From: Giardia intestinalis
Taxonomy: Eukaryota
Length of the DNA: 64,000 bases
NCBI GenBank assembly: GCA_000002435.2
Contig: CM018793.1
Reading direction: 5' to 3' (one strand)
The notes below the pieces were generated by a model. That model saw nothing but the letters and a program-made list of their open reading frames with translations, searched no databases and was not told where the DNA came from. The translations under genes and the position numbers were made by a program. Below, one piece after another: positions 8,523 to 35,364 of this stretch (the first letter of the stretch is position 1; each line of letters begins with the position of its first letter).

Positions 8523-11500
8523 ATGCATGAATTTTGTCTCGAAGCTACCCATAAAGTTTTGAGATACACTTCCGATGAGGAGGAGGATCTTCTTCGGGGC
8601 GTGTTTGCCATCAGGAAAGTCGATGAGGTGCTAGTGATGCTGCGAATTTTGGATTTCAGACAGCTTCCTCAGACCAGACGAACTGTTATGACAGCTAGAG
8701 TCAAGGCCAATCTGCGCTACCCAAGTCGGTATCTTACACAGATATACTCTCTTCAGGAAGCTCCAGACAAATCCAGGATCCTGATAGAGCTGTATCTGTC
8801 TACAAACAAAACGTTTGAATGCTTGCTAGTTGAGGATGTAATTTCTGTTGAGAGGGCTGTGAGGTTGATTTCTGACTTAGTGCATGGTACAGTTGAACTT
8901 CTAGACTATTATTTACAACGCAACGTTACCGTTACCCAGGATCTTCTCTGTAATGCAATCTTATTGCCCAGTACATTGTTTATTTTGCATGATGATACCA
9001 TACTTTTCCCGAATCCATGCATAGCTACACTCGATGCCGACTTGGGGTTTTCTAATAGGTTGCTTGAGCAAGAGCAATGGAAAAGATATGCACCACCAGA
9101 AATACATTTTTTGCTGTTAGACCGTGGCACAGAGCTATCTATCGACACTCTGGAGAAAGTCCTTACATGGTCTGTTGGTATGTTAGTGTCGGACCTTTAT
9201 TCTCTCGTAGAGGGATCAGACGGTATAGCTGACGCAATGGTCGATACCGTGTTCCCTGACCGATGCGCTATGCATTGTGATGTTCTTTGTCTTGTTCGAA
9301 AGATACTCTGCGCTTGCCTAGTAGAAGATCCTGCATCGCGGGCTGACTGTCAGACGCTTGCGATGAGTCTGGAAGCTGTCCAAAATATCCCGCAAGTTGT
9401 CTCCATTATTAATGCTTCAGAGCATTCAGTAGTTTCTATGAATACTAGTCTGATTTCGGATGAAGACAACTTTCTCATTCTTCCCAATGAATACTTATGC
9501 GTAGAAAGGCCGAGAGAGGATCATTTAGTTACTGCTATCCATGGTACACCAGGTTTTCATGATATTTTTGATGCTGATGATTACGCTGGCAGCATTTCAA
9601 GTGATTATTGGCAACTGGAAGATGAAGTGGCAGTACGACGGCATTCAATATCTTGCTATAAAAACGCACCTAATGAATCTGACTATTTTAACGAAGTCGA
9701 TATAAACGATAAGCGGTCACGATCTAAGTCAGACGCTTGGTCTCACAACTTAGCCGATAGCGCATTCCGCCGGTACATAGAGGCTGCTACCGTAGGACGT
9801 ACCGATTTAGTAGCTATCTATATCGGTAGGTGCTCCAGACAACAAGATATAGACGGTGGTACTGCTCTAATGGCAGCCACGAAAGGGGGAAAACATGAAT
9901 GTGTCTCTCTATTGGCACAGTGTGAAGCTGGCTTGCAAGATGTTCACGGACTATCGGCGCTAATGTATGCCGTGCTTCGAAGTGATGCTACATCTGTCCA
10001 ACTTCTTTGTACGGCCGAGTGTGGTCTGGTGGATGACAGAGGGATGACAGCTCTTATGCATGCGGTCGAGCAAGATTGCTATCAAGTGATTCATCTGCTT
10101 ATAGAAGAAGTTGCTATGATAAACACTAATCATATGAGCGCCTATGATATTGCCGTGAAGCTGGGGCACAACAGATGCACCATGATATTAGAACCATATG
10201 CACTGCAGCTCAGAGTACACCGTGTTGCACGCGTTAATAGCTATGGATACACAGCTTTAATGTTTGCCGCTATACAAAATGACGTTGCAACAGTGTGTCA
10301 GCTTGCTTCAGAAGAAGGAGGAGTAGTGGCAGAGGATGGTAGCACAGCTCTTTATGCTGCTATTCTGCATAACAACTACCTTTGTATACCACCTCTTCTA
10401 CGGTATGAACGATCTATAACGACACCTGATGGATCCACGCCGCTAGAGTTAGCAGAGAAGCTTAACCGCTATGAGTGCGCCCGTCTCTTGCGGAGCCCGG
10501 TTGTAAAAGGGTATCTTCCGATTGATACTGAGTCCTGTTTGATGAAGGAGGCAAGACACGGAGATCCAGAGCTTTTAAGAGCTCACTTGAATGAGGTTCT
10601 TTTAATGTCTGCTAGAGGTGAAACTGCCCTTATGATAGCCGCAGGTGCGGGAAGCTACAGGTGCGTAAAGGACCTATTGCAGTATGAGCAAGGGATGGTA
10701 TCTCCAACTGGCTGGACTGCTCTGATGTACGCGTCCATGAATGGACATTTAGACTGCGTTAGCTTGCTATGCGCCACTGAGGCGAGAATTACTAATACTC
10801 TCGGTCAATTAGCATATGATATTGCAGTGGAAAAAGGCCACAAGGCGTGTGCACGGTTTCTTTCTAAATATGAAGAGCATTTAACTGTTGCGTATCGGGT
10901 TGACGAACTTTTAGCTTTAGACCGTATAGGCGATGCGGTGAGACTACTCAAGCAGCCATTTGTGCTATCTGCAGCTCTTGTCAAATGTATTTGGAGCGTA
11001 CACGGGGGAGAATTTATGGTATTGTGGGGGGCTCTTCGAGCAAACGTGGACCTGACTATACTGGCCAAATATATCACTTTAGAAATGAGTGTTGACCTCA
11101 ATGATCCAGAGCTAACCGACCTTGTATTGAAAAGGAAAGCAGAGTATCAATTGGTCAGTGCAGGACAGAACAACTTAGAAAGTTTATTACATAAAGCTCT
11201 CTGTTCACAGAAATTTCTTGTTATTCCAGTTATCTGTGAGCATGCAATGACTAAGCGTAAGCGCATCTTTGTACAAAAGAGGGTTGGAAAAGCAGTCACC
11301 AGGAAAACAAGACTAATGATAGCAGCAGAGATTGGGGACCTTTCTGAAGTAGAGCAGAATCTTCAATACTTGTGTTTTCAATGTAAGGGTCTTTGCACTT
11401 TCCAAAGGAAGGAAGAGCGTCATTCTTTAGAGACTCATAATAAGACAGTCAGTAGCGTTACGGCTTTAATGCTTGCTGCTGCAAATGGACACAGGAACTG

Positions 11501-11723
11501 TGTTCCTGCTCTCCTTCCCGAACTAGGGCTACGGGACCAGGCATCTGGCACAACAGCTCTGATCCTTGCCCTTTGGTACGAAGATACTACTATTGTCCGC
11601 CTACTTCTTCCTGAGGCCAATATTGCTGATAACAGTGGTATGACTCCTTTAATGCATGCTTCTAAGAAAGATAACAAAAAATGTGCGCAATTACTTAAAT
11701 CATATTTGAAAGCAAAAGGATAA
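8523..11723 (+). CDS. ankyrin-repeat protein with an N-terminal degenerate NEK-like (pseudo)kinase region (Giardia 21.1/NEK family type)
   Basis: The N-terminal ~230 aa carry relic kinase motifs (LHDDTILFPNP, LDADLGFS, YAPPE) but lack a Gly loop and the VAIK Lys. At least 12 ankyrin repeats follow (G.TALM.A...GH...V.LL). Confidence 0.7.
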   Translation: MHEFCLEATHKVLRYTSDEEEDLLRGVFAIRKVDEVLVMLRILDFRQLPQTRRTVMTARVKANLRYPSRYLTQIYSLQEAPDKSRILIELYLSTNKTFECLLVEDVISVERAVRLISDLVHGTVELLDYYLQRNVTVTQDLLCNAILLPSTLFILHDDTILFPNPCIATLDADLGFSNRLLEQEQWKRYAPPEIHFLLLDRGTELSIDTLEKVLTWSVGMLVSDLYSLVEGSDGIADAMVDTVFPDRCAMHCDVLCLVRKILCACLVEDPASRADCQTLAMSLEAVQNIPQVVSIINASEHSVVSMNTSLISDEDNFLILPNEYLCVERPREDHLVTAIHGTPGFHDIFDADDYAGSISSDYWQLEDEVAVRRHSISCYKNAPNESDYFNEVDINDKRSRSKSDAWSHNLADSAFRRYIEAATVGRTDLVAIYIGRCSRQQDIDGGTALMAATKGGKHECVSLLAQCEAGLQDVHGLSALMYAVLRSDATSVQLLCTAECGLVDDRGMTALMHAVEQDCYQVIHLLIEEVAMINTNHMSAYDIAVKLGHNRCTMILEPYALQLRVHRVARVNSYGYTALMFAAIQNDVATVCQLASEEGGVVAEDGSTALYAAILHNNYLCIPPLLRYERSITTPDGSTPLELAEKLNRYECARLLRSPVVKGYLPIDTESCLMKEARHGDPELLRAHLNEVLLMSARGETALMIAAGAGSYRCVKDLLQYEQGMVSPTGWTALMYASMNGHLDCVSLLCATEARITNTLGQLAYDIAVEKGHKACARFLSKYEEHLTVAYRVDELLALDRIGDAVRLLKQPFVLSAALVKCIWSVHGGEFMVLWGALRANVDLTILAKYITLEMSVDLNDPELTDLVLKRKAEYQLVSAGQNNLESLLHKALCSQKFLVIPVICEHAMTKRKRIFVQKRVGKAVTRKTRLMIAAEIGDLSEVEQNLQYLCFQCKGLCTFQRKEERHSLETHNKTVSSVTALMLAAANGHRNCVPALLPELGLRDQASGTTALILALWYEDTTIVRLLLPEANIADNSGMTPLMHASKKDNKKCAQLLKSYLKAKG

Positions 11724-12379
11724 TACTGTAAGAGATTGTGTCTAAATTTATTGTATAATAACTCTATGAATACTTTATAATTGTTCTACTCAATATTAAT
11801 ATAAAAATGCATATTCTTGATGATCTGTGAAGGTATGGTAAGAAGCTGGTAGTTCTTACGTTTTACCAAAAAGCATCTTCAGTAAACCTAACTTATCCAT
11901 ATGCACGAATTCGAAGACTGCAAGTTGCGGCCTCAGCAGAACCCCCAGTCTTTTACAGAAGAGCTATAGACTGTCTGCAACCTCTTGGGATAATTTGTCT
12001 ATTTGCGCACTTCAGTACCCCATCCACGACGATGACCAGTAGACAGCAGCGACTCCTGCCTCGGACATAGCGCTAGATGCCGCCCAGCTCAGAACTCGTC
12101 AGCTAACATGTTCTACCCGAACGGAGGAGGCGCTTGGACAGCTGAGTGCAGAGGGAGCTATCTGCTAAGGTTATCCAATGGTTGTATCACCACGCACTCT
12201 TCCTTCATCGCTTCCATTTCTAAGACTCGCAGGAGAAGTCACAGACCCTATAGCAGCAGGGTAACGCTTGTTCAGACGATGCGCTCACCCCGCCCCTGAG
12301 CGTACTGGATGAATCGGTGCTGATCTTCTTGTCTCTAGTAGTTGACCCTGATCACTACAGCAGGTGTGGGCCTTGTATG

Positions 12380-12555
12380 GTGGTGGACCTTAGTAGTAGT
12401 TTACTCCACCCACCGGTTGCTTCCAGTGGTGTGCTGCTGGAGCCCTCGCCTGCGGGCGCTGTCCGCAAATCTCGCGAGTAAATTCCCGCTCAATTTTTGG
12501 CGATGTCCGGAGACGAGGGTTGGCTATGGAATATGATAATGACCACAGTAGTGGA
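12380..12555 (-). repeat. inverted copy of a retroelement 3'-end module (115-bp near-identical core ending in AGTAAAC)
   Basis: The reverse complement of 12397-12515 matches 15421-15549 with 1 mismatch over ~115 bp (ccaaccctcgtctccggacatcgccaaaaattgagcgggaatttactcgcgagatttgcggacagcgcccgcaggcgagggcYccagcagcacaccactggaagcaaccggtgggtggagtaaac). The flanks are ~70% similar for another ~60 bp. Confidence 0.75.
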
Positions 12556-12559
12556 AGGG

Positions 12560-15500
12560 AGGAGCTATTGCGTTCCTCGGTTGTTCCGCGGGCGTGCACA
12601 CAGCTGTACCTGAGGCGAAGGAGAGCCCGCGAGGACCCGATCCGCATTCTGAATGCAAGATCGTACCTCCGGGCCCCAGAGAGCAAGCCATGAGTTCCTG
12701 CTCGGGGGACCACTCCGAAGACATTTACTCTCTCAGCAGGACACACACGCTGGCTCTGTGGCCTGCCGTGCGAGAGCGCCAAGCAACTAACCGAGCACCT
12801 GAGAGAAGCAAATGATGACAGACACAGAGTACTAGGCGACGACAAACTGATCATTCCGTCTCACATACCGAACCAGACAGCTGCCATGCTCATCCACCAG
12901 GGGGCACGCATGATCGCGAGCATCGAACAGGCCGGGACTGGGGTAGCGCTCCCCGCTATCAGGGGCCTAGACGCCCTGGTGGGAAGCCCCAGAGGACTCA
13001 AGCAACACAGTAGAGCAGGCCCAGAGTAAGGCAGACCCAGACCCCGAGAAGGCGAGGCGCCGGATAGCAAACAGGGTGAGTAACGCGCTGAGCTTCGGAG
13101 CAGTTGCTAAGGCTCTCCGTGCCCTTGATGACACACCCATGGTAGACATCAAGCCGGAGAAAGCCAAGGCCGCCCTCAGCGCGCTACACCCGTGCGTCCT
13201 CCCGAAGGCTACGTTGGCCTTGACTACCCTCCATCGATGAACTCGACGGGGCTGGAGCCGGCAACCGAAGAAGAAATGAGGAAGGCCCTGTTGGGACTCT
13301 CAACAAGAAGGCCTCGGGCGTGTCTGGCCTCGGGCCGGTCCATCTCAAGGCGATGAAGCAGAACGACGACTGTGAAATGCCTCACGCAGGCGTACAACGA
13401 GCTGACCACCCACCCCGAGGCGATGTCCGACGTGATGGCCATGTTCGAGTTCCGGGCGATCCTCATCCCGAAGGAGTCCGACGGATACCCCGATCGCGAT
13501 AGGCGGACGGTCACGAACATCTTCCACCGCGTCCTGCTGAAGGGCTGATCAGGCATGCCAGCTACCTCTCATGCGAGCAGATCGCCCTCAAGCAGAACGC
13601 ATACGCGGTAGGCGTGAGGAGGGCCCACGAGCTCATCAGCAGGCCGGGGATGCACCCCGTCTCCCTCGACACAAAGAACGCCTTCAACTCCCTCCCAAGG
13701 GCGGAGGTCGTCAGAGCCCTGAACGAGGCGGGCGTCCCGAAGGTCCTGGTCGACTACATTAGGAACTTCCTCGAGCCGAGGCACAGCCGGGACGTGAAGT
13801 GCGAGGTCTGCGGCGTCCCCAGGGCGGCCCGCTCAGCACGCTCCTCTTCTGCATGGCCACCGAGCGCCTCCTGAGACGCCTCAAGGAGAGAGGCATCACC
13901 TTCCTTGCCTATGCAGACGACATCGTGGCGTTCCACGACGAGGGGTACCCGGCAGGCACGATAACACAGCAGGCCACGGTGGAGGCCGCCGCCATGGACC
14001 TGACGATCAGGAGCGACAAATGCAAGTCTACCATGGCGGGCGAGGAGGTGACCTTCCTCAACCACCCGGCGTCCCCTACTCCTGCAAGCTCCAAAGGCCA
14101 TCGCAGGTGCCGAGACTGCCCTGAGGAAGATCGAGAGAGCACCCATAACCATCCACCAGAAGCTCATCCTGCTGTCACTGTGTGGTCCCGATGGTGAACT
14201 ACGCCCCCCTGGTCGAGATAACATCGAACAAGGTGAACTACGAGGAGCTCGACAGACATCGCACAAGGCTTCAGCAAAATAACTAACAGAAGCTGCGATC
14301 GCCTGGTCGACTTCCTGGCGTACCCGAAGGAGAAGGGCGGCCCGGGCCTGCTCATGCCGGGGCTCTACCACGACGAGCTGCGGAGGGCATGGGCCTCCCT
14401 GGACGTCAACAAGGGGGCCAGAGACCCGGTGGAGCTGTCGGTGGACGGCCAGGCACTGCAAGGAAAGGGACCTACTCCAACCGCCTCCTCAGCCACACAC
14501 CAGCTTCCGGACAGAGCGGCGGCGTGCTGACCGAGGAGGAAAGGGCCCTGAAGGAGAAGGGCGATTCGATCATGGCGCAGACAAGAGGCACCTGCCCGGG
14601 CTGCCACACGGCAGACCCTCGACCACGACATGAACTGCCCGAAGACGGCGTGGACCAGGACCACGAGGCACGACACGATCGTCACGTGCCTGTACCTCCG
14701 CGTCTCAGGGAAGTTCAACGCAGAGCTGGAGGTCAAGACCCACAGCCACCTCAGCGACCAGAACCAGAAGCCCGACATCTGGCTCGTCGACAAGTGGAAG
14801 GCGATAGATGTGGGCGTCATCCAGCCCCGCCAGATGGATGCCTACTACAACGAGAAGGTCAAGAAGTACAGGGACGGGACGCTCCCGATCATCTACGGGA
14901 CAGACGGATCCCTCCACCCCAGTCCAAGGGGCACCTCGAGGAGCTCCACGTGGACCTCTGTCCGGGCTGCCTTCGCCATCGCCCACATGGCTGCAGAGGC
15001 GAACGAGCACCCGACGAAGCTGATCAGACGGGCCGGGCCGAAAGCCTGGCCACCCAGAGCGACCGTCTCCTGTCATCCTACTTCTGACAACCGAATGAGT
15101 CCATCCCCGGGACCTGTCGACAACGACCGAGAAGGGGCGCAAGACTGGACACACAACCGAGTTGAATCCCAACCAGAAGAGAAAGCCCCGCTAGCTGCTG
15201 CTGATATACATGGACAGTATTGAGAATGACAACAAAGACCAGAGCTTCACTCACCGTGAGGGGAGAACAAAGAGAGGTGCCCTAGTAGACCAGTGAGTCC
15301 ATGAGATGGCTTGATCTCCAAAAGGACCTATGTGCACATCCAGTCTAAGTGTACTCCTGTAGAATAGCCGAGGAACGCAATAGCTTCTCCCTACAACCGA
15401 TGTGATTATCGTTACGGTCCGTGACCAACCCTCGTCTCCGGACATCGCCAAAAATTGAGCGGGAATTTACTCGCGAGATTTGCGGACAGCGCCCGCAGGC

Positions 15501-15560
15501 GAGGGCCCCAGCAGCACACCACTGGAAGCAACCGGTGGGTGGAGTAAACCACCTTTGTGA
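12560..15560 (+). mobile_element. degenerate (frameshifted) R2-clade / GilM-GilT-GilD-like non-LTR retrotransposon: zinc finger, RT, CCHC + REL-endonuclease, 3'UTR
   Basis: Zinc-finger-like CGLPCESAKQLTEHLREANDDRH (~12762-12830). RT motifs VSLDTKNAFNSLPR (13659-13700), QGGPLSTLLFCMA and AYADDIV (13908-13922) sit in different frames. CPGC (14593-14604) and QTLDHDMNCPKTAWTRTTRHD (to ~14660) are split by a 1-nt frame change. Then KPDIWLVDKWKAIDVGV...EKVKKY (14768-14880) is the PD-(D/E)xK REL-endonuclease. The 3' module ends in AGTAAAC (15543-15549). GC-rich, with no continuous ORF. Confidence 0.7.
15368..15560 (+). repeat. direct-orientation copy of the retroelement 3'-end module (partner of 12380-12555)
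   Basis: See the inverted copy. Ends ggAGTAAACcacc, 14 nt before the AT-rich initiator of the ankyrin gene at 15574. Confidence 0.75.
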
Positions 15561-15573
15561 CCATGGAATAAAA

Positions 15574-16245
15574 ATGTCGTCTGTGGATGATTCAGATCAA
15601 CTCCTTCAGAAGCACGACTGCGCCCCGCCCCTTATGCCCGAGAAGGACACGAGCGAAGAGGGCGCAGGAAACCCAACTGAGCCTTCAGAAATGGATGATG
15701 AAGGCAGCGTGGACGAGAACGGCGTCACCACACTTATGAAGGCAGCCAGCAGAAACGACGTGGACGCGGTGAAGCGCTACATCCCTTATCAGGCAAGGAT
15801 GGTGGCGAGGTTTGTCAAGGCAGGGAGAGTAGAGATACGCGAAGGAACGGCACTGATGATCGCCGCGGTGCTTGGACACGTTGAGGCGGTGAAGCTGCTG
15901 ATGAAGCACGAGCGTTGCATGAGGAGCAGCAATGAGTACACGGCCCTCATGTGGGCGGCAGCAAATGGTCGCGCTGAGGTCGTGAGGCTACTCATGGAGG
16001 TTGAGGGTGGCATGCAGCAGGGCAAGGGCTGGACTGCTCTCGTCAGTGCAGCATACTTTGGTCGTCTGGACTGTGTCAAGTTACTGCTGGAGAAGGAGAG
16101 GGACATAGGCGGCTGGCCTGCTCTTTGCGTAGCTGATATGGAGGGTCATTCCGAGGTGGTGTCTCTTCTCGAGAGTGAGGGTATTGGACTGGAGGAGCCC
16201 TGTCTACGGATGTCGCCCAGAAAGGCCGTGAGTGAACGCGCCTAA
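15574..16245 (+). CDS. small ankyrin-repeat protein (224 aa)
   Basis: Start trimmed to ggaataaaaATGtcg (MSSVDDSDQ). The listed ORF start at 15421 runs through the retroelement repeat. It has 4-5 ankyrin repeats (TTLMKAASRNDVDAVK, TALMIAAVLGHVEAVKLL, TALMWAAANGRAEVVRLL, TALVSAAYFGRLDCVKLLL). GC-rich codon usage. Confidence 0.7.
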   Translation: MSSVDDSDQLLQKHDCAPPLMPEKDTSEEGAGNPTEPSEMDDEGSVDENGVTTLMKAASRNDVDAVKRYIPYQARMVARFVKAGRVEIREGTALMIAAVLGHVEAVKLLMKHERCMRSSNEYTALMWAAANGRAEVVRLLMEVEGGMQQGKGWTALVSAAYFGRLDCVKLLLEKERDIGGWPALCVADMEGHSEVVSLLESEGIGLEEPCLRMSPRKAVSERA

Positions 16246-16551
16246 CTGTTGGTTGCATCCGGCGGTGGATAGAATCTCCCTCCAGCTGTGCAGCAAACAG
16301 ACACCTCAATGAAGTGGTGGCTGTCAGTGAGGCACACAGCTGCCCGTTTCCGCAGAGGTCAGGGGGAGCAGGCCTTCTCACCCCCGGCCAGCACTGGAGC
16401 GCCAGTGGGTGAAACGGTCGCACGGGTGGCCTTCTTGCCCTTGATGCAGAAGCCCTCCGCAAGCATTGGACCACTACAGATATGTAGACACAAACCCCTG
16501 TGGAAACGGATCGTTTCCAAAACTGTAGATTACCAAAATAATAAAACCAGG

Positions 16552-24275: not shown

Positions 24276-27200
24276 TCACATGGCCCCCATTGAGCCTGGG
24301 GTCATAGAAATAGCATGTCTTGCTGTACACTCTGATGCATTAGCTATGCTGTTCATGCGCGGTGTAAGCATTAATCCTTGAAAGCTTCCTGCTTGTGGTA
24401 ACTGTAACATCATTTTTTCCTGTCCTTGTGGAGCATTTGGAGTCATGGATGGCTCAGAAAATGCGCTTGCCGGATAGGCATACGTGGCTGCCCCCGGATT
24501 CAGCGAGCTAACCGTGATAGATGACGTGAGGTTAGCTGCGGAAAGGGAACCGTCACTATCAACCGTATTTTCACTATAACCATTCTGTGTCATGAGAGCA
24601 GAGACAGTTGCCTTAAGCTCAGTGATATTTTCAGTATATTTTGTCTTCAGCTTCTTTAGAGTCGCCTGAAGCTTTTGTATTTGCCCATCTTTCTCTGCTA
24701 GTTCTTTTCCATGTTGTTCCTGTAAGTCTGAAATTTTCGCTAACTGCCGGCTTGAAAGTTCGGCTACTGTAGCTTGTTCCTTCTCCACTCGACGCTTTGC
24801 ACCCAAAAGCTCAGTAGTAAGATTAGTTATTTTGGCTGCGTTTGCAAGAGCCTCGTCTTTTGATTCCTGTTTGAGCCTAATTATTTCTCTTTCGCGTTTC
24901 TCCACAGAGTTAGCGTATCGTGTGTTGACATCTGCCAAGTCCTCCATCAGCTTAGAAATTTGTTGCCTATAGTGTGCTATCTCCTTCTTAGCATGCTCTT
25001 GCTGCTCTTCAAGCTGTCGCCTAAGTTGATCGACATCCGAAATCCTTGTGTTGTCTGCTGTCACCTGCACTTCTTGCAGCATCTCTAGCCGTCCATTGAG
25101 CTCCTGTATCTTTATAGTGGCGTCCATAGTTGTCTCAGTCAGTTCAACCTTTAAAGCACTTATATTTTCCTGAAGTTTTTCTATCATCTCATCCTTAGTT
25201 TTTAGCTGTGCCTCTAAATCAGTCCTCACCTCGGCAAGCATGCTCTTCGAAGATAAAAGTTCAGCTTGCAGGCGCTCAACTTCTGTAGTGTTAGTCTTCT
25301 GTATTATCTCTGATTTGGCTCGGACCATTTCCAACTCGGACTGGAGCTTCAATTGCTCCATCTCCCCAGTGGTCCTAGTGGCATTGCACTTTGCGTGGGA
25401 TTGCTCGAGCTGAGACTGCAGCTGAGACATTTGCGCCAGTTCTTCCTTCCGTTTCTGCTTCATGTCTTCGTTTGCATCTGTTAGTCGTGTTAATTCGTGT
25501 TCCTTTTCTGCCAACAACTCGCTGAACTGAGCCTTTTGTTGCTCTAGCACAGTATATAACTCTCTTAGTTGTGCATCCTTTTCATCAACACTTGCTAAAT
25601 AATCCTTTTTGTTGCGTTCTAATTGCTCATTCAGCATAACTATTCGCTCTTCTGTATCTGTAACGTACCGTTCGTGTACTTTCTTTGCCAGAGAGAGTTC
25701 TGAATTCAGCTGCGCTAGCTTTTCCTCTTGAGATGCAGCATCAGCCTCGCTCTGGGCCTGGAGCACTGCGTATCGACTACAGAGTCCCTTTAACTGTGCA
25801 TTCAGTCTTGACTGTGTGCTATTTCCGTCGGCAATGAGAAACTCTTGGTTTTTACGCAATTCCGTTAGCTCGTTTTGGAGATCAATAATGTTGTTCTTGC
25901 ACTCCTTAATTTGCCTATCCTTTTCTTTGATTGTTTCTGCTAGGCGAGTCTGAATAAGCTCTGTGTCCGCTTCAGCGGCTTGAACCGCGGCTTTGCTCTC
26001 TTCTCTTACACTTTGCATCTCTGCAGTTAAAGTGTTAAGTAAAGTAGTTTTTTCTTCAGTGACCCGTTCTACACTAGCATTGACTTTTTCAAGGCTGTCT
26101 TCAAGCAGCTTGAGTCTAGCTTCCATAGTGGCTTTGTAAATCTTATACTCTCCTGAAAGGGTCTCATATTCACTGCGCAGCGATCCAATGTCTTCGTCTT
26201 TTTTTAGTAATAGAGCAGTGTTCTCCGCATTGAAGTTAGAGAGCTGCGCTAGGAGGTCCTGCTTTTCTTTTTCAATACGCTGGATGTCGCTATTTGCACG
26301 TTCTTGGATCTCTTGCCTCTGCATGGCTTGTATGTCCGCCTCATTGCGCTTCTCCTCGTTAAGGGATTGAATAACCTCTTTTAAATTGGAAATCTCCAAC
26401 TCCAGCTTTTCAACTTCGCTCTCTTTGCGTAGTAATGCAGTCTCGGATGTACTGGCCAATGCAGTTAGCTTTGAGTTCAGAGAGATTACCTGAGACTCCG
26501 CGGTTTGGAGCCGCGCCTTGCACTCTATGAGCTCCCGGCTTGTCCTGTCGGCTTCTGCCTCTAAAAGTTTATAATCAGCAGTCGTGTTGGACATCTTTGC
26601 CTTCAGTTCATCTAAGACTGTGTCACGCTCCCGGAGAGTTCGCTCAGACAGGCACCTGATTTCATCGCACTTCAACAGATATGTGCGGATTTCCTCATTC
26701 TTCTTTCCTTCCATGTCTTCGGAATGCTTGATAGCTTCCTTGAGATTTTCTATTTCTTGCTCACGCTTTTCAAGCAATGAGACAAGATAGGCTTGCATTG
26801 CTGATTTTTGTTGATTTTCTTCGTGTAACTTCATTAATTCGCTATTTAAGATATTATTATCCTCAACCACTTTGGCCATGTTTTGTCGCAAGTTTACCAA
26901 ACCCTCCATGACCTGGTTATTTATAGACTCGTTTGCACCGTTCATAGATTGCAGCAGTGTATATATCTGTTTAGGGGTTATCCTGGCTATATCACTTTCT
27001 GAAAGGGAGGCGGCCGGAATGACTGTTGGGCGCTCTTTGCTAAATGTGACTTCCTTCGGCAATCCTTTTCTTGATGGACAGTTGTCTCCAGAGAGGGATA
27101 AAAGAGGGTCGAGTTCCACGGACTGGTGGAGGCTGTCTTGCATGTCGGAAATGTCTGCACTCATGTCTTTCATGGCAGTGTACGCTTCATCTATCGCTTT

Positions 27201-27395
27201 CTTTCTGGCCTCAAACTTTTCTAAGGTTGTCTTTGGGTTATTCTGGCTTGTAGTGCTCTTCTGTGCCTGAGAGTAAAGATTGGTGATAGCCTCACGAAGA
27301 TCGTTAGCCAGCTGATTCTTCGGTTCCAGCTGTGGCCTGGGCTGCACAAAAGCTTCTGGCGGCGTAGTATCTAGCGCCATCTCCCTGTTATCCAT
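24276..27395 (-). CDS. long coiled-coil protein (~1039 aa)
   Basis: Start trimmed to the ATG at 27395 (MDNREMALDT); the listed 27413 start is TTG. About 800 aa of uninterrupted heptad-rich sequence (E/K/L/Q), with non-coiled termini (S/T/P-rich C-terminus). Confidence 0.7.
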   Translation of the reverse strand: MDNREMALDTTPPEAFVQPRPQLEPKNQLANDLREAITNLYSQAQKSTTSQNNPKTTLEKFEARKKAIDEAYTAMKDMSADISDMQDSLHQSVELDPLLSLSGDNCPSRKGLPKEVTFSKERPTVIPAASLSESDIARITPKQIYTLLQSMNGANESINNQVMEGLVNLRQNMAKVVEDNNILNSELMKLHEENQQKSAMQAYLVSLLEKREQEIENLKEAIKHSEDMEGKKNEEIRTYLLKCDEIRCLSERTLRERDTVLDELKAKMSNTTADYKLLEAEADRTSRELIECKARLQTAESQVISLNSKLTALASTSETALLRKESEVEKLELEISNLKEVIQSLNEEKRNEADIQAMQRQEIQERANSDIQRIEKEKQDLLAQLSNFNAENTALLLKKDEDIGSLRSEYETLSGEYKIYKATMEARLKLLEDSLEKVNASVERVTEEKTTLLNTLTAEMQSVREESKAAVQAAEADTELIQTRLAETIKEKDRQIKECKNNIIDLQNELTELRKNQEFLIADGNSTQSRLNAQLKGLCSRYAVLQAQSEADAASQEEKLAQLNSELSLAKKVHERYVTDTEERIVMLNEQLERNKKDYLASVDEKDAQLRELYTVLEQQKAQFSELLAEKEHELTRLTDANEDMKQKRKEELAQMSQLQSQLEQSHAKCNATRTTGEMEQLKLQSELEMVRAKSEIIQKTNTTEVERLQAELLSSKSMLAEVRTDLEAQLKTKDEMIEKLQENISALKVELTETTMDATIKIQELNGRLEMLQEVQVTADNTRISDVDQLRRQLEEQQEHAKKEIAHYRQQISKLMEDLADVNTRYANSVEKREREIIRLKQESKDEALANAAKITNLTTELLGAKRRVEKEQATVAELSSRQLAKISDLQEQHGKELAEKDGQIQKLQATLKKLKTKYTENITELKATVSALMTQNGYSENTVDSDGSLSAANLTSSITVSSLNPGAATYAYPASAFSEPSMTPNAPQGQEKMMLQLPQAGSFQGLMLTPRMNSIANASECTARHAISMTPGSMGAM

Positions 27396-27675
27396 CAACA
27401 GAGCTATATTCAAAAGTAGGATAAATTTTAGTGGGAGTTAAATCTGGCTGCATACCAGTAGCTTAGCAAGGCACCCCATAGAGTGGCGGTTACAGCGTTT
27501 CTATGAAATGTTTGAGTGGAAAAGTATCAGAGTCTCTTCAGACAGAGTGAGGTTGAGTGCTAGATTTACTGTCAGGCAATATTAGTGTATTATTAGATGA
27601 GAACTATGCTATGTACCGAATCGCTAGCGGGAGTTACGAGGCCTCTAACAGCCTAGACTCTCACATCTTTTAAAA

Positions 27676-32229: not shown

Positions 32230-35200
32230 TCATATCAAGTGCTGCGCCTGTCTGAACACTTTCTCAACCTCGTGGATGATGAGAGCATTTCCGCTTTCGC
32301 GTGCATAGGAGAGGGTATCGCGGCCTGTTGCGGTCATCTGGTCGTGCTCGTCAGGCAGCATCTTCATTACACAGGGGAGGTGGGAATTTTGGCAAGCGAT
32401 CATTAAAGCGGTGCGGCCGTCAACGGTCTGCATTTTCTTTTCAAGAGGGAGCAGAACCGAGACAATCTCATCAAATCCGTTCGCACACGCAGCCATCAGT
32501 GCAGTTGCGCCATCCTGTGGGCGCTTAAACGACGCCTCTTTCTCTGCAAGTACCTTTACACACGCAAGATGTCCGAAAGAGGCTGCATACATCAACGCAG
32601 TCATACCATCCCTGTCAGCCACACAATCTTCATATTCAAGAAGCGATTTAACGCACTCCAAATGACCGTACTCAGCCGCATACATTAGTGCCGTGCGGCC
32701 ACAGCCATCTACCTCCCCACGCTGCGTATCGAGAAGCCTCTGCACCTCCGTGATGTTCCCTCCCTTCGCTGCCAGCATAAGCTCTGTCTTATTACAAAAA
32801 GGAGACACGCTATAATCAATTAAGGAAGTAGTGCTACGTAAAGGCACGTCCGAGTTAACCTTGTGGCCTGTACGATGTGTGGAGTTTGTGGACACGTTGC
32901 TGCTCGTAATAGGTGACCCGGAACTCGTCCTGACAAGAAGTTGATTGAATCCGAGAGTCTTAGAGGGTGACTTAACAGTGGAGGTGCCTTTCCTTGTGCT
33001 AGATGTCTTTGTAAGATCTGGGTTGCGAGATTGAGTTGGGGAAGTATGAAACCCAAGCACATCTTCATGTGTGCGCGGGAAAAGAAGACGGTCTGCTGCC
33101 CGAGGAATAAATCCGTGCTCCTCAAGCTTAAGTGTTGCAGAGCGCACCGTGCCTGTGAAGCGATTGGCTGCGATGCTGTTAGCCATAAATGCATTTGGAT
33201 TTCCTTGAACATAGATGCCTCCTGGGGATGCACTGGTTACCAGGTGCGCAGTATTAGTGGCCGTGTTTATCAGAACAGAGTCATCAGTATAGCCAGCTGC
33301 CTTTAGATTCTTCATTTGGTAACAATTGGCGCACCCCTGCATCTGGCTGACGCAAGCTGCAGCGAACGCACGTGTTTCCTCGAGAGCGTTTTGAAGGGCA
33401 GCAATACGTTTATCTTTGGCATGCAGTTGGCAGGCTATTTCTGTAAGCTTGGCGGTACATTCGGGGCAGGTGCAATAAAGCCTGATGCCGTAGTAATCGG
33501 CAGGTAAGATTCCTTGAATCTGAGCAGGGCCCATAGTAGCATTAGGATCAGGGGGTATGCTCCCCTGTGTGGTAACAAGGATGCTTCTGGAGGGAGAGTT
33601 AGAGTGGTCAATACGTTCATGTAAAGGCCTGCCCTTGGCGTCTGTCTTTGGCGTGTACTGTCTAGGAACGATTAGTGTGGGATCCAACTTTTCGTGACTG
33701 CTGACGGAAGGAAACGGAACGTGCTTCTCCACCGAAGTGCCTATTAGCGGAAACGGATTTGTGGAGTCGATGACATCTTCGTTCCTGTGGAACGCCCTGT
33801 TCCTTTCTTGGATATCTTGGCGCTTACGCCGCAGCTCCTCGTGCTCACGCTCTATCTCCTCCGCGCTTAGCCTGATATCGGCCCTGCCGCAAGTGCCGTT
33901 GTTTGCTGGCTCCCCCGAACCGTAATGCTCGACACCCTCCGGAACAGTGTATCCCACTCGCTGGTTAGCACGGAACACAGAGTCCTCTGTCTGACCGCCC
34001 TCGTCATCACTGGAGTATGCTTCATACGCATCGTTTACTACTCCGGCAGCCGATATCTGATTGATGATATCATCAACATCGACCTCATCCTGAGTAGCAG
34101 CGCCAACGTTGATCGGTCCGGCTGTCCCTTCTACAGATTCATCGAGAGCAGACGCACGAAGAGTATCCTCAACTGTGCCCTTAACGTCAGCGGAGGGGGG
34201 ATAGGCGGTCAATTGGGCGAGGGTGACTGGAAGCAGAGGCGGGGGTGATTCGGGATTTCCGTCGGTTGGAAACATTGCTGACAAGGCCTCCAGGCGAGAG
34301 GCGCTAGCCTTCATAAGCTCCACTTCGCGTTCGGCAGCCGCCTGCTCAGCAAGGGCGAGACGCTCAGCCGCTTTTCGCGATCGCTCCGCAGCATTCTCAG
34401 CGAGCCTACGCTGGATGGAGTCGGCTTCCCTTTGCTCTTCTGCACGGCGTTCTGCGGCCTTGGCCGCAAGGACCTCTTCTTCAGATGGAGGCCTCTCCTT
34501 CTCGCGCTCAGAGGCCAGCTCATCGATATTACTAACGAAATCTTCCATAGCCTTTTTCTTTTTGTCTATCTCATATCTGTTGACGACCTGGCAGACCTTC
34601 TGTTGAGCTAGACGCATAGACTCGCTGAGACCCTCCATTGGAGGAACGACCTCATTCTTGAAGGATTCGGTCATCACCTTAGAGTGGCTCATGATCACGT
34701 TGGCCTTTTCCTGAGCCGACATTTCAGCAACTAATGCCAAGGCCTTCGACGAAACCTTCGACGACTGCAGGAGACGCATGCTCGCAGTAATGACACTAGG
34801 GTCTATGTCCGGGAAGTCGAAGGACGCAATGTAATCGGCTATATTCTGGAAACCGTGGTCCTTGGCGATCTTGATGGCACGAGCAGCATCGTGTTTGGAT
34901 ATATGGTTCCCCAGCTCGATTAGCTTCTTGACCGACTCCGTCTTTCCCAGGCTACACGCCAACTCGAACGAAGTCATTCCGGCACTATCGCGGGCACGTT
35001 TGAGCGCACCGTGCATCAGCACGATGGACCTTAGGCTCTCCATTGCAGCAGCAAAATGCAAGGGCGTAGAGCCGTCCTTGAGCCGGGTAGCTATCTCGTA
35101 CATGCACATGTCCGAGACGCAGCCAGGCTGGTCGTACCTGATGGCAGTGAGGATGGCATTCTCGCCGCGGTCATTGCAGATGCCGTGCTCAATGGGGGCA

Positions 35201-35364
35201 AGAAGCTTTGTTATGCGCCTATCTCCGCGTTTACACGCGAGGATCAGAGCAGTGTCACCGCGGCTGTTCTTCTTCTTTGCATACGTGGGCAGTGCCTCCA
35301 CGATGGCATCTATGTCTCCGACCTCACACGCCCTGAACCACTGCAAATAGTTTTGGACCTTCAT
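32230..35364 (-). CDS. ankyrin-repeat / coiled-coil protein (1044 aa; 21.1-type)
   Basis: N-terminal ankyrin repeats (GDTALILACKRGDRRITKLL, GSTPLHFAAAMESL). A central E/R/A-rich coiled coil and a Cys-pair region (CTCPEC...CANC). A C-terminal block of >=5 ankyrin repeats (RTALMYAAEYGHLECVKSLL, MTALMYAASFGHLACVKVL, TALMAACANGFDEIVSVLL, RTALMIACQNSHLPCVMKML). Confidence 0.75.
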   Translation of the reverse strand: MKVQNYLQWFRACEVGDIDAIVEALPTYAKKKNSRGDTALILACKRGDRRITKLLAPIEHGICNDRGENAILTAIRYDQPGCVSDMCMYEIATRLKDGSTPLHFAAAMESLRSIVLMHGALKRARDSAGMTSFELACSLGKTESVKKLIELGNHISKHDAARAIKIAKDHGFQNIADYIASFDFPDIDPSVITASMRLLQSSKVSSKALALVAEMSAQEKANVIMSHSKVMTESFKNEVVPPMEGLSESMRLAQQKVCQVVNRYEIDKKKKAMEDFVSNIDELASEREKERPPSEEEVLAAKAAERRAEEQREADSIQRRLAENAAERSRKAAERLALAEQAAAEREVELMKASASRLEALSAMFPTDGNPESPPPLLPVTLAQLTAYPPSADVKGTVEDTLRASALDESVEGTAGPINVGAATQDEVDVDDIINQISAAGVVNDAYEAYSSDDEGGQTEDSVFRANQRVGYTVPEGVEHYGSGEPANNGTCGRADIRLSAEEIEREHEELRRKRQDIQERNRAFHRNEDVIDSTNPFPLIGTSVEKHVPFPSVSSHEKLDPTLIVPRQYTPKTDAKGRPLHERIDHSNSPSRSILVTTQGSIPPDPNATMGPAQIQGILPADYYGIRLYCTCPECTAKLTEIACQLHAKDKRIAALQNALEETRAFAAACVSQMQGCANCYQMKNLKAAGYTDDSVLINTATNTAHLVTSASPGGIYVQGNPNAFMANSIAANRFTGTVRSATLKLEEHGFIPRAADRLLFPRTHEDVLGFHTSPTQSRNPDLTKTSSTRKGTSTVKSPSKTLGFNQLLVRTSSGSPITSSNVSTNSTHRTGHKVNSDVPLRSTTSLIDYSVSPFCNKTELMLAAKGGNITEVQRLLDTQRGEVDGCGRTALMYAAEYGHLECVKSLLEYEDCVADRDGMTALMYAASFGHLACVKVLAEKEASFKRPQDGATALMAACANGFDEIVSVLLPLEKKMQTVDGRTALMIACQNSHLPCVMKMLPDEHDQMTATGRDTLSYARESGNALIIHEVEKVFRQAQHLI

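What the first reader, a model, noticed from the sequence alone, without database searches (positions are those of the whole stretch)
12380..15560. Near-perfect 115-bp inverted module (AGTAAAC-terminated) flanks the retroelement and abuts an ankyrin gene start
Seen in sequence: 12397-12515 (reverse complement) and 15421-15549 differ at 1 position over ~115 bp, while the adjoining ~60 bp are only ~70% similar. Both copies end in GGAGTAAAC, the Giardia polyA signal. The core has internal self-complementarity (ccctcg...cgaggg and the palindrome ctcgcgag). The right copy ends 14 nt before the ATG of the ankyrin gene at 15574. Inference: this is the element's 3'UTR/RT-recognition module. The left inverted copy would then be an extremely 5'-truncated second insertion lying head-to-head with the main copy. 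Alternatively it is a conserved structured RNA or regulatory cassette maintained by gene conversion.
Basis: partly seen in the sequence, partly recalled or inferred. Interest (0 to 1): 0.65.

Follow-up and report, generated by a model that had tools for sequence, protein, structure and literature searches.

The report
Inverted end repeats of a dead Giardia retrotransposon
The two near-identical inverted 125-base modules are the built-in terminal inverted repeats of a degenerate Giardia non-LTR retrotransposon (GilD/Genie 2 type), a feature I recall as already described for this family, and here they also mark sites where the genome has recombined and inverted.

Summary
Arms 12396-12599 and 15349-15552 form a 204-nt inverted repeat, and the outer ~125 nt ('O') match at 124/125. 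Each arm ends outward in AGTAAAC.

Between the arms lies a frameshifted non-LTR reverse transcriptase with an RVT_1 domain, YADD, a CCHC motif and restriction-like endonuclease motifs. It lacks about the first 712 codons of an intact relative.

The reading of the left arm as a chance 5'-truncated second insertion is not supported. Both arms occur, with the same inner junction, in two further copies in isolate DH. The inverted arm also sits 27 nt upstream of an intact 1548-aa ORF in assemblage-B relatives.

Four other assemblage-A assemblies lack at least the left end of the insert, exactly from 12392|12393. A 34-nt segment inside the arms is swapped between copies. In DH the orthologous 4-kb block (element plus ankyrin gene) is inverted, with one breakpoint in the left arm. 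So the arms recombine.

From memory, Burke et al. 2002 reported inverted repeats in all Genie 2 copies; I could not retrieve that paper. Verdict: an already known kind of feature with some new local detail. How the 5' arm is made and kept is unresolved.

The parts
12393..12523 (-). Left terminal inverted repeat, outer module O' (the inverted copy of the 3' module). The left junction of the insert is 12392|12393. The reverse complement of AGTAAAC is at 12399-12405.
   Evidence: 124/125 identical to 15425-15552 in reverse complement. nhmmer E 4e-40. Four assemblage-A contigs (L011-L014) follow the window to 12392 and then diverge into P15-like sequence. DH has the identical left junction.
12524..12557 (-). 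Left arm, variable segment V, type A.
   Evidence: 34/34 identical to the RIGHT arm V of L002 and 30/34 to the right arm of L003, but only 18/34 to the window's own right arm V.
12558..12599 (-). Left arm inner part: the invariant 23-nt block I (12558-12580, GGAGGAGCTATTGCGTTCCTCGG) and the fading end of the repeat.
   Evidence: I is 22-23/23 identical in all good arms of the window, L002 and L003_R. It has no counterpart in the assemblage-B relatives.
12600..15348 (+). Degenerate body of the non-LTR retrotransposon. It has a C2H2-like finger (~12745-12815), an RT domain (~13357-14060, YADD at ~13915-13926), CCHC (14592-14641), restriction-like endonuclease motifs (RHD ~14668-14676, KPDI 14768-14779) and a 3' UTR from ~15090. 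It corresponds to aa ~713-1517 of the intact relative P0007, so about the first 712 codons are missing.
   Evidence: Three-frame reading with many frame changes and stops. Pfam RVT_1 E 2.5e-23 on the stitched translation. tblastn of P0007 hits frames 2, 1, 3, 2. GC 0.60-0.66 and A-over-T skew on the + strand, unlike the flanks. The only homologues are Giardia proteins.
15349..15424 (+). Right arm inner part: block I (15368-15390) and variable segment V, type B (15391-15424).
   Evidence: V is 30/34 identical to the LEFT arm of L002. The orthologous arm in DH (L020) carries type A instead.
15425..15552 (+). Right terminal repeat, outer module O. This is the 3'-terminal structured module ending in the poly(A)-type signal AGTAAAC (15543-15549). 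The right junction of the insert is about 15551|15552.
   Evidence: Homology to the P15 orthologous site resumes at CCTTTGT (15553). DH has the identical right junction.
15574..16245 (+). Flanking ankyrin-repeat gene (ARP-1, 223 aa). It is not part of the element, but it travels with the element in the DH inversion.
   Evidence: Pfam Ank_2. P0022 = KAE8304669.1. Inverted together with the element in DH contig L020.
16385..16411 (+). Old, diverged O-like relic (CCAGCACTGGAGCGCCAGTGGGTGAAAC), ~140 nt after the ARP-1 stop. It is the second breakpoint of the DH inversion.
   Evidence: The DH junction is a hybrid of the left-arm outer end and this relic. The relic is also present at the orthologous place in P15.

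Best explanation
The 3.16-kb segment 12393-15551 is one copy of a Giardia-specific, restriction-like-endonuclease (R2-like) non-LTR retrotransposon. It matches what I recall of the 'dead' family GilD/Genie 2, and it carries built-in terminal inverted repeats.

The ~125-130-nt module O is the 3' end of the element's RNA: two hairpins followed by the Giardia poly(A)-type signal AGTAAAC. By analogy with R2-type elements, this is where the reverse transcriptase would bind to begin target-primed reverse transcription (inferred, not shown).

An inverted copy of O is a fixed part of the 5' end of the element, both in intact relatives and in this deleted derivative (shown).

The two arms stay alike because they exchange sequence. 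Recombination between arms, and between an arm and an O-like relic, has swapped an internal 34-nt segment between ends. In isolate DH it has inverted a 4-kb block that includes the neighbouring ankyrin gene (shown by comparison).

The window copy is a non-autonomous, frameshifted deletion derivative. It replaces about 2.4 kb of older sequence still present in P15; four other assemblage-A assemblies still carry the first ~390-450 bp of that older sequence (shown).

Whether it arrived by trans-mobilisation or by DNA-level conversion is not resolved. Nor is the role of the 5' arm: promoter, antisense terminator, or pairing partner of the 3' end.
For: - Repeat geometry and significance.
- RT/endonuclease body, degenerate.
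- Both arms with the same inner junction, in different genomic contexts (DH L002 next to a VSP gene; DH L003 next to a NEK/ankyrin gene).
- Inverted O arm 27 nt upstream of an intact 1548-aa ORF in L004, and again in L019. O sits in sense orientation ~560 nt after the ORF stop in L001. The left and right arms of this B family are 98% alike. O is 82-88% identical between assemblages, while the ORF is 75%..
- Left edge of the insert defined by alleles that lack it there: L011-L014 diverge at exactly 12392|12393 and continue with P15-like sequence. P15 has 2.47 kb with no detectable similarity to the element apart from one weak O-like stretch, and its homology resumes ~1 nt after the right arm..
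- DH shares both junctions.
- Arm recombination: V types A and B are swapped between the window and L002, and they differ between the WB and DH orthologous arms. DH carries a 4-kb inversion with a hybrid O'/relic junction..
- Stable, similarly shaped sense-strand fold in the A and B versions (z -3.4 and -4.3).
- Giardia poly(A) signals of the AGUGAA/UAAA type lie within 40 nt of the cleavage site: PMC3610916.
- Three retrotransposon families are known in WB, one of them dead: PMC10999387, PMC3091692.
Against: - Identity with the deposited GilD/Genie 2 sequences could not be checked, because no Giardia nucleotide collection was available. The two primary papers are not in the library, so the family name and the prior description of the repeats rest on memory.
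- Covariation support for the RNA fold is weak: one compensatory pair and a positive covariation term.
- There are no transcript data, so the poly(A) use, the transcription start and any RT binding are untested.
- V differs by 47% between arms while the flanking O and I are 96-99% alike. Simple homogenisation does not explain this.
- L003's left arm is degenerate (about 70-86% to O, depending on how much is aligned) and truncated, so homogenisation is not universal.
- No target-site duplication is visible, so retrotransposition into this site is not demonstrated.
- Contigs L011-L014 end 260-450 bp past the junction, so absence of the rest of the element in those isolates is inferred, not seen.
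Confidence: 0.78

Rival explanations
1. The 5' arm is not inherited through the RNA. It is rebuilt from the 3' module at every integration, an inverted analogue of LTR regeneration. Either both ends of the target break prime on the RNA 3' end, or the first-strand cDNA folds back on its own 5' region and copies O. If copying runs on past the element end, it would also duplicate the flank in inverted orientation.
For: - L and R arms share lineage-specific states: A-type vs B-type O differ by ~13-18%, yet the arms are 98-99% alike within each lineage.
- The high-identity zone has a sharp inner boundary at the same place in both lineages.
- The A-assemblage deletion derivative has a longer left arm (204 nt, reaching into 3'-UTR-derived V and I) than the full-length B element (130 nt). 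That fits a left arm copied from the 3' end when the derivative arose.
- L002's inverted repeat continues from AGTAAAC outward, symmetric to the base, for ~700 more nt into a VSP gene.
Against: - The three A copies share one inner junction, so the arm was not made afresh with variable length in each.
- V and the region inside it are not homogenised.
- L003's arms differ markedly (left arm about 70-86% identical to O).
- The transcription start is unknown.
- A DNA-level fold-back after a break would give the same structures.
Confidence: 0.2
2. One reading: the left arm is a separate, extremely 5'-truncated insertion of a second element copy that landed head to head with the main copy at this locus.
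For: The left arm is exactly an inverted 3' end, running to within 7 nt past the poly(A)-type signal. That is what a 5'-truncated copy would look like.
Against: - The same arm with the same inner junction is found at two other DH loci, and an inverted O arm at the 5' end of intact assemblage-B copies.
- At this locus the insert spans arm to arm: the ancestral sequence kept in P15 is missing from 12393 to ~15551, and both junctions are shared with DH. One replacement event explains this more simply than two insertions.
Confidence: 0.04
3. The arms belong to the target, not to the element: the element inserts into the centre of a pre-existing palindromic host sequence.
For: Related Giardia elements are said to insert in a specific repeat (Genie 1; PMC1950533). 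An O-like relic exists independently of an RT body at 16385-16411, and one at L015 16393-16475.
Against: - The allele lacking the insert (L011-L014) and P15 have no O arms at the junctions.
- O is contiguous with element 3'-UTR sequence in every copy, including the old fragment in L002.
- No uninterrupted palindrome was found in any sequence held.
Confidence: 0.03
4. O is an independent structured non-coding RNA gene or regulatory cassette, only coincidentally next to the retroelement.
For: The predicted fold is stable, with the same shape in A and B versions. The outer end sits 21-24 nt from the ankyrin gene's ATG.
Against: - No Rfam family matches at E<=1.
- No copy lies away from an element body or remnant in the ~190 kb of Giardia sequence examined.
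- Covariation is weak.
- There are no hits in JGI metagenomes.
Confidence: 0.03

Closest known systems
GilD (Arkhipova & Morrison 2001, PNAS 98:14497) = Genie 2 (Burke, Malik, Rich & Eickbush 2002, Mol Biol Evol 19:619), the degenerate non-telomeric non-LTR retrotransposon family of Giardia lamblia WB
   Same: Host and isolate (WB). RT plus CCHC and restriction-like endonuclease. Degenerate reading frame. Interstitial location. From my memory of the Burke et al. abstract, all Genie 2 copies carry inverted repeats of up to 172 bp.
   Different: Nothing demonstrably different. I could not align to the deposited sequences or read either paper. As far as I know, these points are not in that description: the repeat here is 204 nt with a 125-nt near-perfect outer part; the same arm sits in front of an intact 1548-aa ORF in assemblage B; and the arms have swapped segments and mediated an inversion.
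R2-type (restriction-like endonuclease) non-LTR retrotransposons
   Same: Single ORF with N-terminal zinc finger, central RT, C-terminal CCHC and PD-(D/E)XK-like motifs. A structured 3' UTR that in R2 is the RT binding site for target-primed reverse transcription.
   Different: R2 elements have no terminal inverted repeat and are strictly site-specific for rDNA. This family is dispersed and carries an inverted copy of its 3' end at its 5' end.
Penelope-like elements with an upstream inverted 5'-truncated copy, and DIRS elements with inverted terminal repeats
   Same: Retroelements whose copies commonly carry an inverted piece of themselves at the 5' side. This is thought to come from the integration mechanism (own knowledge).
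   Different: No GIY-YIG nuclease or tyrosine recombinase; Pfam finds only RVT_1 and weak zinc fingers. Here the inverted piece has a fixed length and junction.
Duplicated inverted VSP gene pairs of Giardia WB (Adam et al. 2010, PMC2996952; Xu et al. 2020, PMC7000408)
   Same: In WB, identical gene pairs in inverted orientation are separated by 2-4 kb with abrupt divergence points. Four of seven divergent pairs have a reverse-transcriptase remnant between them. DH contig L002 shows the same layout, with this element and its arms at the centre.
   Different: No VSP pair flanks the window copy; its repeat stops a few nt beyond AGTAAAC. The papers do not link the pair boundaries to the element's inverted repeats.

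Membership tests
GilD / Genie 2 (dead Giardia non-LTR family) | Found in Giardia lamblia/intestinalis assemblage A (WB) | tested here: met
   Flanking genes are 100% identical to WB proteins KAE8304668.1 and KAE8304669.1. All RT homologues are from Giardia.
GilD / Genie 2 (dead Giardia non-LTR family) | Degenerate coding capacity (frameshifts, stops, truncation) | tested here: met
   Frame changes and stops throughout. About 712 N-terminal codons of the intact relative are missing.
GilD / Genie 2 (dead Giardia non-LTR family) | Interstitial, not in telomeric tandem arrays | tested here: met
   A single copy between two ankyrin-repeat genes, in a region syntenic with P15. There is no tandem copy in the 64-kb window.
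   204-nt repeat in the window. Both arms are also present in L002 and L003. The literature value is from memory and could not be verified.
GilD / Genie 2 (dead Giardia non-LTR family) | Nucleotide identity to the deposited GilD/Genie 2 consensus | not testable with these tools
   No collection holding Giardia GenBank entries could be searched by DNA. The metagenome scan gave 0 hits.
Restriction-like-endonuclease (R2-like) non-LTR retrotransposons | Reverse transcriptase domain with YxDD | tested here: met
   Pfam RVT_1, E 2.5e-23. YADD is read at ~13915.
Restriction-like-endonuclease (R2-like) non-LTR retrotransposons | C-terminal CCHC motif followed by PD-(D/E)XK-type nuclease motifs; no APE domain | tested here: inconclusive
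   CPGCH..H..C and RHD...KPDIWLVD...D motifs were read by eye. There is no Pfam hit for this region. No structure was predicted.
Restriction-like-endonuclease (R2-like) non-LTR retrotransposons | RT binds the 3' UTR RNA and primes on nicked target (TPRT) | not testable with these tools
   Only a predicted 3' hairpin module is available. There is no biochemistry.
Class II DNA transposon / MITE with terminal inverted repeats | Transposase gene (or none) between TIRs, plus a target-site duplication | tested here: not met
   The interior encodes an RT, not a transposase. No duplication is present at the junctions defined by the insert-free allele, only a 4-nt CCTT microhomology.
Known structured RNA families (Rfam 15) | Covariance-model match | tested here: not met
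   No match at E<=1 in 11500-16500, both strands.

The most novel reading that the evidence does not exclude
The inverted O arms are fold-back primers. They would act either during reverse transcription (rebuilding the 5' arm each cycle) or after a nearby DNA break. When synthesis runs past the element end, it would copy the flank in inverted orientation. That would make this 'dead' retroelement family the seed of Giardia's perfectly identical inverted gene pairs, including the duplicated VSP surface-antigen genes. It would also make it a driver of local inversions between isolates.
Probability: 0.2. Interest if true: 0.7.

Novelty: already known. Interest (0 to 1): 0.33.

Why it matters
On its own this is an annotation point. 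A 3.2-kb stretch of the WB reference has no protein-coding gene between two consecutively numbered ankyrin genes. It is a dead retrotransposon copy whose inverted ends explain why short-read assemblies break there.

The wider interest is that these ends are recombination-active. At this locus they account for three structural alleles within assemblage A: no insert at the left junction, insert present, and insert plus gene inverted. In another isolate the same ends sit at the centre of an inverted VSP gene duplication.

If that link is general, a retroelement relic shapes the antigen-gene repertoire and the synteny breaks of a human parasite.

An apparently intact 1548-aa relative in assemblage-B material also suggests the family is not dead everywhere.

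Tried and rejected
- Literature. Burke et al. 2002 and Arkhipova & Morrison 2001 are not held. Guessed ids for Eickbush reviews failed. Searches for 'Genie 2', GilD and inverted repeats found no paper describing the repeats.
- Public DNA scan. The conserved core pattern found nothing in JGI metagenomes. The bacterial/archaeal and viral collections were not scanned, being irrelevant to Giardia.
- Rfam. No family matched.
- Covariation. With only two divergent lineages, alifold gives one compensatory pair and a positive covariation term, so the RNA structure is not established.
- Extra conservation of O among assemblage-A copies. I considered this and dropped it. Interior identity is ~90-98% per 100 nt, so O's 97-99% is not clearly exceptional. 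Only the A-versus-B contrast (82-88% vs 75%) is notable.
- Left flank 11724-12395. It has no homology to anything held and no ORF. The similarity of 11801-11824 to the ankyrin gene start is most simply a shared initiator-like gene start, not a target duplication, because it lies 570 nt from the arm.
- Exact-product look-up of the 223-aa ankyrin gene found nothing. The DH orthologue was reached through cluster members instead.
- P15 as a clean empty site. Rejected: it carries 2.47 kb of other sequence with a weak O-like remnant, possibly a much older element.
- The sigma-70 promoter/terminator scanner was not used, as it is inappropriate for Giardia.
Full report

The window contains an inverted repeat with arms at 12396-12599 and 15349-15552 (204 nt, 87% complementary, 2749 nt apart). 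It has three zones.
- O, the outer zone (12396-12523 / 15425-15552), matches at 124/125.
- V, a 34-nt segment (12524-12557 / 15391-15424), matches at only 18/34.
- I, a 23-nt block (12558-12580 / 15368-15390), matches at 22/23. Beyond it the similarity fades.

A 77-nt core and the 33-nt outer end each occur exactly twice in the 64 kb, with none expected by chance. Each arm ends outward in GGAGTAAAC.

WHAT LIES BETWEEN THE ARMS

The interior is G+C-rich (0.60-0.66), with a strong A-over-T bias on the + strand, unlike the flanks.

Read across frames, it encodes a C2H2-like finger, a reverse transcriptase (FRAILIPKE, SLDTKNAFNS, YADD), a CCHC motif and RHD/KPDIWLVD endonuclease-like motifs. Many frameshifts and stops interrupt it. 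The stitched RT segment hits Pfam RVT_1 at E 2.5e-23.

In 5.8 billion proteins the significant homologues are three Giardia proteins plus one marginal metagenome RT (E 1e-6).

The flanking genes are 100% identical to the consecutively numbered WB proteins KAE8304668.1 and KAE8304669.1. So the window is WB chromosome sequence, and the element is not annotated as a protein-coding gene there.

THE INVERTED ARM IS A FAMILY FEATURE

Two other loci in isolate DH carry ~90% identical copies of the whole 3.2-kb unit, including both arms and the same inner junction.
- L002 (880-4064) lies next to a VSP gene.
- L003 (9193-12292) lies next to a NEK/ankyrin gene.

A related family from assemblage B is 75% identical in nucleotides.
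- It has an intact 1548-aa ORF (P0007, with RVT_1 and weak C2H2).
- In two independent metagenome scaffolds (L004, L019) an inverted O arm ends 27 nt upstream of that ORF's start codon.
- In GS_B contig L001, O lies in sense orientation ~560 nt after the stop.
- The left and right arms of this B family are 98% alike.
- O is 82-88% identical between assemblages, while the ORF is 75%.

The assemblage-A copies correspond to aa ~713-1517 of P0007. They are a shared 5'-deleted derivative.

The idea that O is the element's 3'-terminal module is supported.

THE INSERT EDGES ARE DEFINED BY OTHER ALLELES

Four short-read assemblies of other assemblage-A isolates (L011-L014) are 99% identical to the window up to 12392. 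They then continue with different sequence, collinear with the assemblage-E isolate P15. These contigs end 260-450 bp past the junction, so only the left edge is directly shown to lack the insert.

P15 (L015) has 2.47 kb at the orthologous place, with no RT and no repeat. It has at most one weak O-like remnant (E 6e-5). Its homology to the window resumes at CCTTTGT, about 1 nt after the right arm.

So 12393-15551, arms included, replaces the older sequence. No target-site duplication is visible. Short-read contigs of WB-like isolates break within or just before the left arm.

THE ARMS RECOMBINE

V exists in two forms.
- In the window, type A is at the 5' end and type B at the 3' end.
- In L002 it is the reverse, while the sequence just inside I stays with its own end of the body.
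- L003 and the DH orthologue also have type A at the 3' end.

This mosaic needs exchanges with crossovers in I and O.

DH contig L020 is orthologous to the window. It has the same left junction (GGACCTTA|GTAGTAGTTTACTCC) and the same right junction (GGAGTAAGCCACCTTTGTGACCATGGAATAAAAATG). But window ~12.41-16.41 kb, meaning the element plus the ankyrin gene, is inverted there.

One breakpoint is in the outer 25 nt of the left arm. The other is in an old O-like relic at 16385-16411, which P15 also carries. P15 keeps the WB orientation, so the DH arrangement is the derived one.

RNA-LEVEL PROPERTIES

- The sense strand of O folds into two hairpins (-51.4 kcal/mol, z -3.4). The B version folds the same way (-61.7 kcal/mol, z -4.3). 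The antisense strand folds less well.
- Across the few divergent sequences, most changes are wobble-compatible. Only one pair is compensatory and the covariation term is positive. The structure is plausible but not proven.
- Rfam has no match.
- Giardia poly(A) signals of the AGUGAA/UAAA type lie within 40 nt upstream of cleavage sites, and Giardia promoters are reported to be bidirectional (PMC3610916).
- If one transcript contained both arms, they would form a ~125-bp duplex (calculated -280 kcal/mol).

A LARGER PALINDROME IN ANOTHER ISOLATE

In L002 the inverted repeat does not stop at AGTAAAC. It continues outward, symmetric to the base, for ~700 nt at 95-99% identity. It includes an older degenerate 3'-end fragment and the last 25 codons of a VSP gene.

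Two papers bear on this.
- Adam et al. 2010 describe 14 identical inverted VSP pairs in WB, separated by 2-4 kb of 'non-coding DNA' with abrupt divergence points (PMC2996952).
- Xu et al. 2020 list 19 duplicated inverted pairs. Four of the seven divergent pairs have a reverse-transcriptase remnant between them, at 3.2-6.3 kb spacing (PMC7000408).

The spacing minus the repeated flanks in two of Adam's head-to-head pairs (about 2.7 and 3.0 kb) is close to this element's interior. That is suggestive only.

MECHANISM

Shown: a terminal inverted repeat that belongs to the element, and that undergoes exchange and inversion.

Inferred:
- O is the poly(A) and RT-recognition end of the RNA, by analogy with R2.
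- The 5' arm is either transcribed and inherited, or rebuilt from the 3' end by fold-back or double priming.

Evidence favouring rebuilding:
- lineage-specific states shared by the arms;
- the sharp inner boundary of O in both lineages;
- the longer left arm of the deleted derivative;
- the base-symmetric flank duplication in L002.

Evidence favouring inheritance:
- the fixed inner junction in three copies;
- the un-homogenised V;
- the degenerate left arm of L003.

I rate inheritance with recombination as more likely, and rebuilding at about 0.2.

COMPARISON AND NOVELTY

Host, architecture, degeneracy and location match the 'dead' third Giardia family, GilD or Genie 2. The family's existence is confirmed by PMC10999387 and PMC3091692.

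From memory, Burke et al. 2002 stated that all Genie 2 copies contain inverted repeats of up to 172 bp. I could not retrieve that paper or align to its sequences. I therefore rate the finding as already known.

Local additions that I did not find in the searchable literature:
- the arm in front of an intact ORF in assemblage B;
- the O/V/I fine structure with swapped V;
- three structural alleles at this locus;
- the arm-mediated inversion in DH.

LIMITS

- No complete Giardia genome could be searched by DNA, so copy numbers are unknown.
- No transcript or small-RNA data were available.

Noticed in passing
window 12410-16411 vs L020 (DH contig AHGT01000101): The block containing the element and the 223-aa ankyrin gene is inverted in isolate DH relative to WB. 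The junction is a hybrid between the left arm and an O-like relic. Identity inside the block is patchy (79-100% per 100 nt), while the flank is 99%.
   Followed up: yes
window 16385-16411; L015 ~17520: A diverged O-like sequence (CCAGCACTGGAGCGCCAGTGGGTGAAAC) lies ~140 nt after the ankyrin gene's stop. It is conserved in P15, so it predates the A/E split. It may be the 3' end of a much older element copy.
   Followed up: partly
L011-L014 (Logan contigs from SRR10063834, SRR10368411, SRR10063828, SRR10368406), junction at window 12392: Assemblage-A isolates that lack the element's left arm at this site and continue with P15-like sequence. The insert is therefore polymorphic within assemblage A, at least at its left edge.
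   Followed up: partly
L002 163-1083 and 3855-4773 (DH contig AHGT01000170): A 920-bp inverted repeat made of the element's arm plus flank plus the tail of a VSP gene. It is symmetric from AGTAAAC outward. An older degenerate element 3' end sits 3 nt from the VSP poly(A) signal on each side.
   Followed up: partly
L004 267-4913, L019 159-3620 (ENA metagenome scaffolds); L001, L018, L005 (GS_B/GS): An apparently intact 1548-aa ORF of the same family (75% nt identity to the window copy), with ~712 extra N-terminal residues. The family may still be active in assemblage B.
   Followed up: partly
window 12524-12557 and 15391-15424; L002, L003, L020 arms: Segment V exists as two discrete forms that differ at 16 of 34 positions, 12 of them transitions. 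The flanking 23-nt block I is invariant in all good arms. The reason for this contrast is unexplained.
   Followed up: partly
L015 16393-16475 (P15): A weak O-like stretch (nhmmer E 6e-5) lies ~240 nt upstream of the P15 ankyrin gene. It sits inside the 2.47-kb segment that occupies the element's place, which may be the ruin of an older copy.
   Followed up: no
L001 3989-4200 (GS_B): The 3' arm of this copy is truncated ~30 nt from its outer end and joined directly to the middle of a VSP-like coding sequence on the opposite strand. This looks like a rearrangement breakpoint.
   Followed up: no
window 11801-11824 and 15568-15591: Both read ATAAAAATG...GATGAT (71% alike). The first is followed by a stop after 7 codons. 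This is probably only an initiator-like gene start, or possibly a remnant gene start.
   Followed up: partly
window 24276-27413 and 32230-35364 (- strand): Two ORFs of 1045 and 1044 aa in the same orientation, 8 kb apart, look like a paralogous pair.
   Followed up: no
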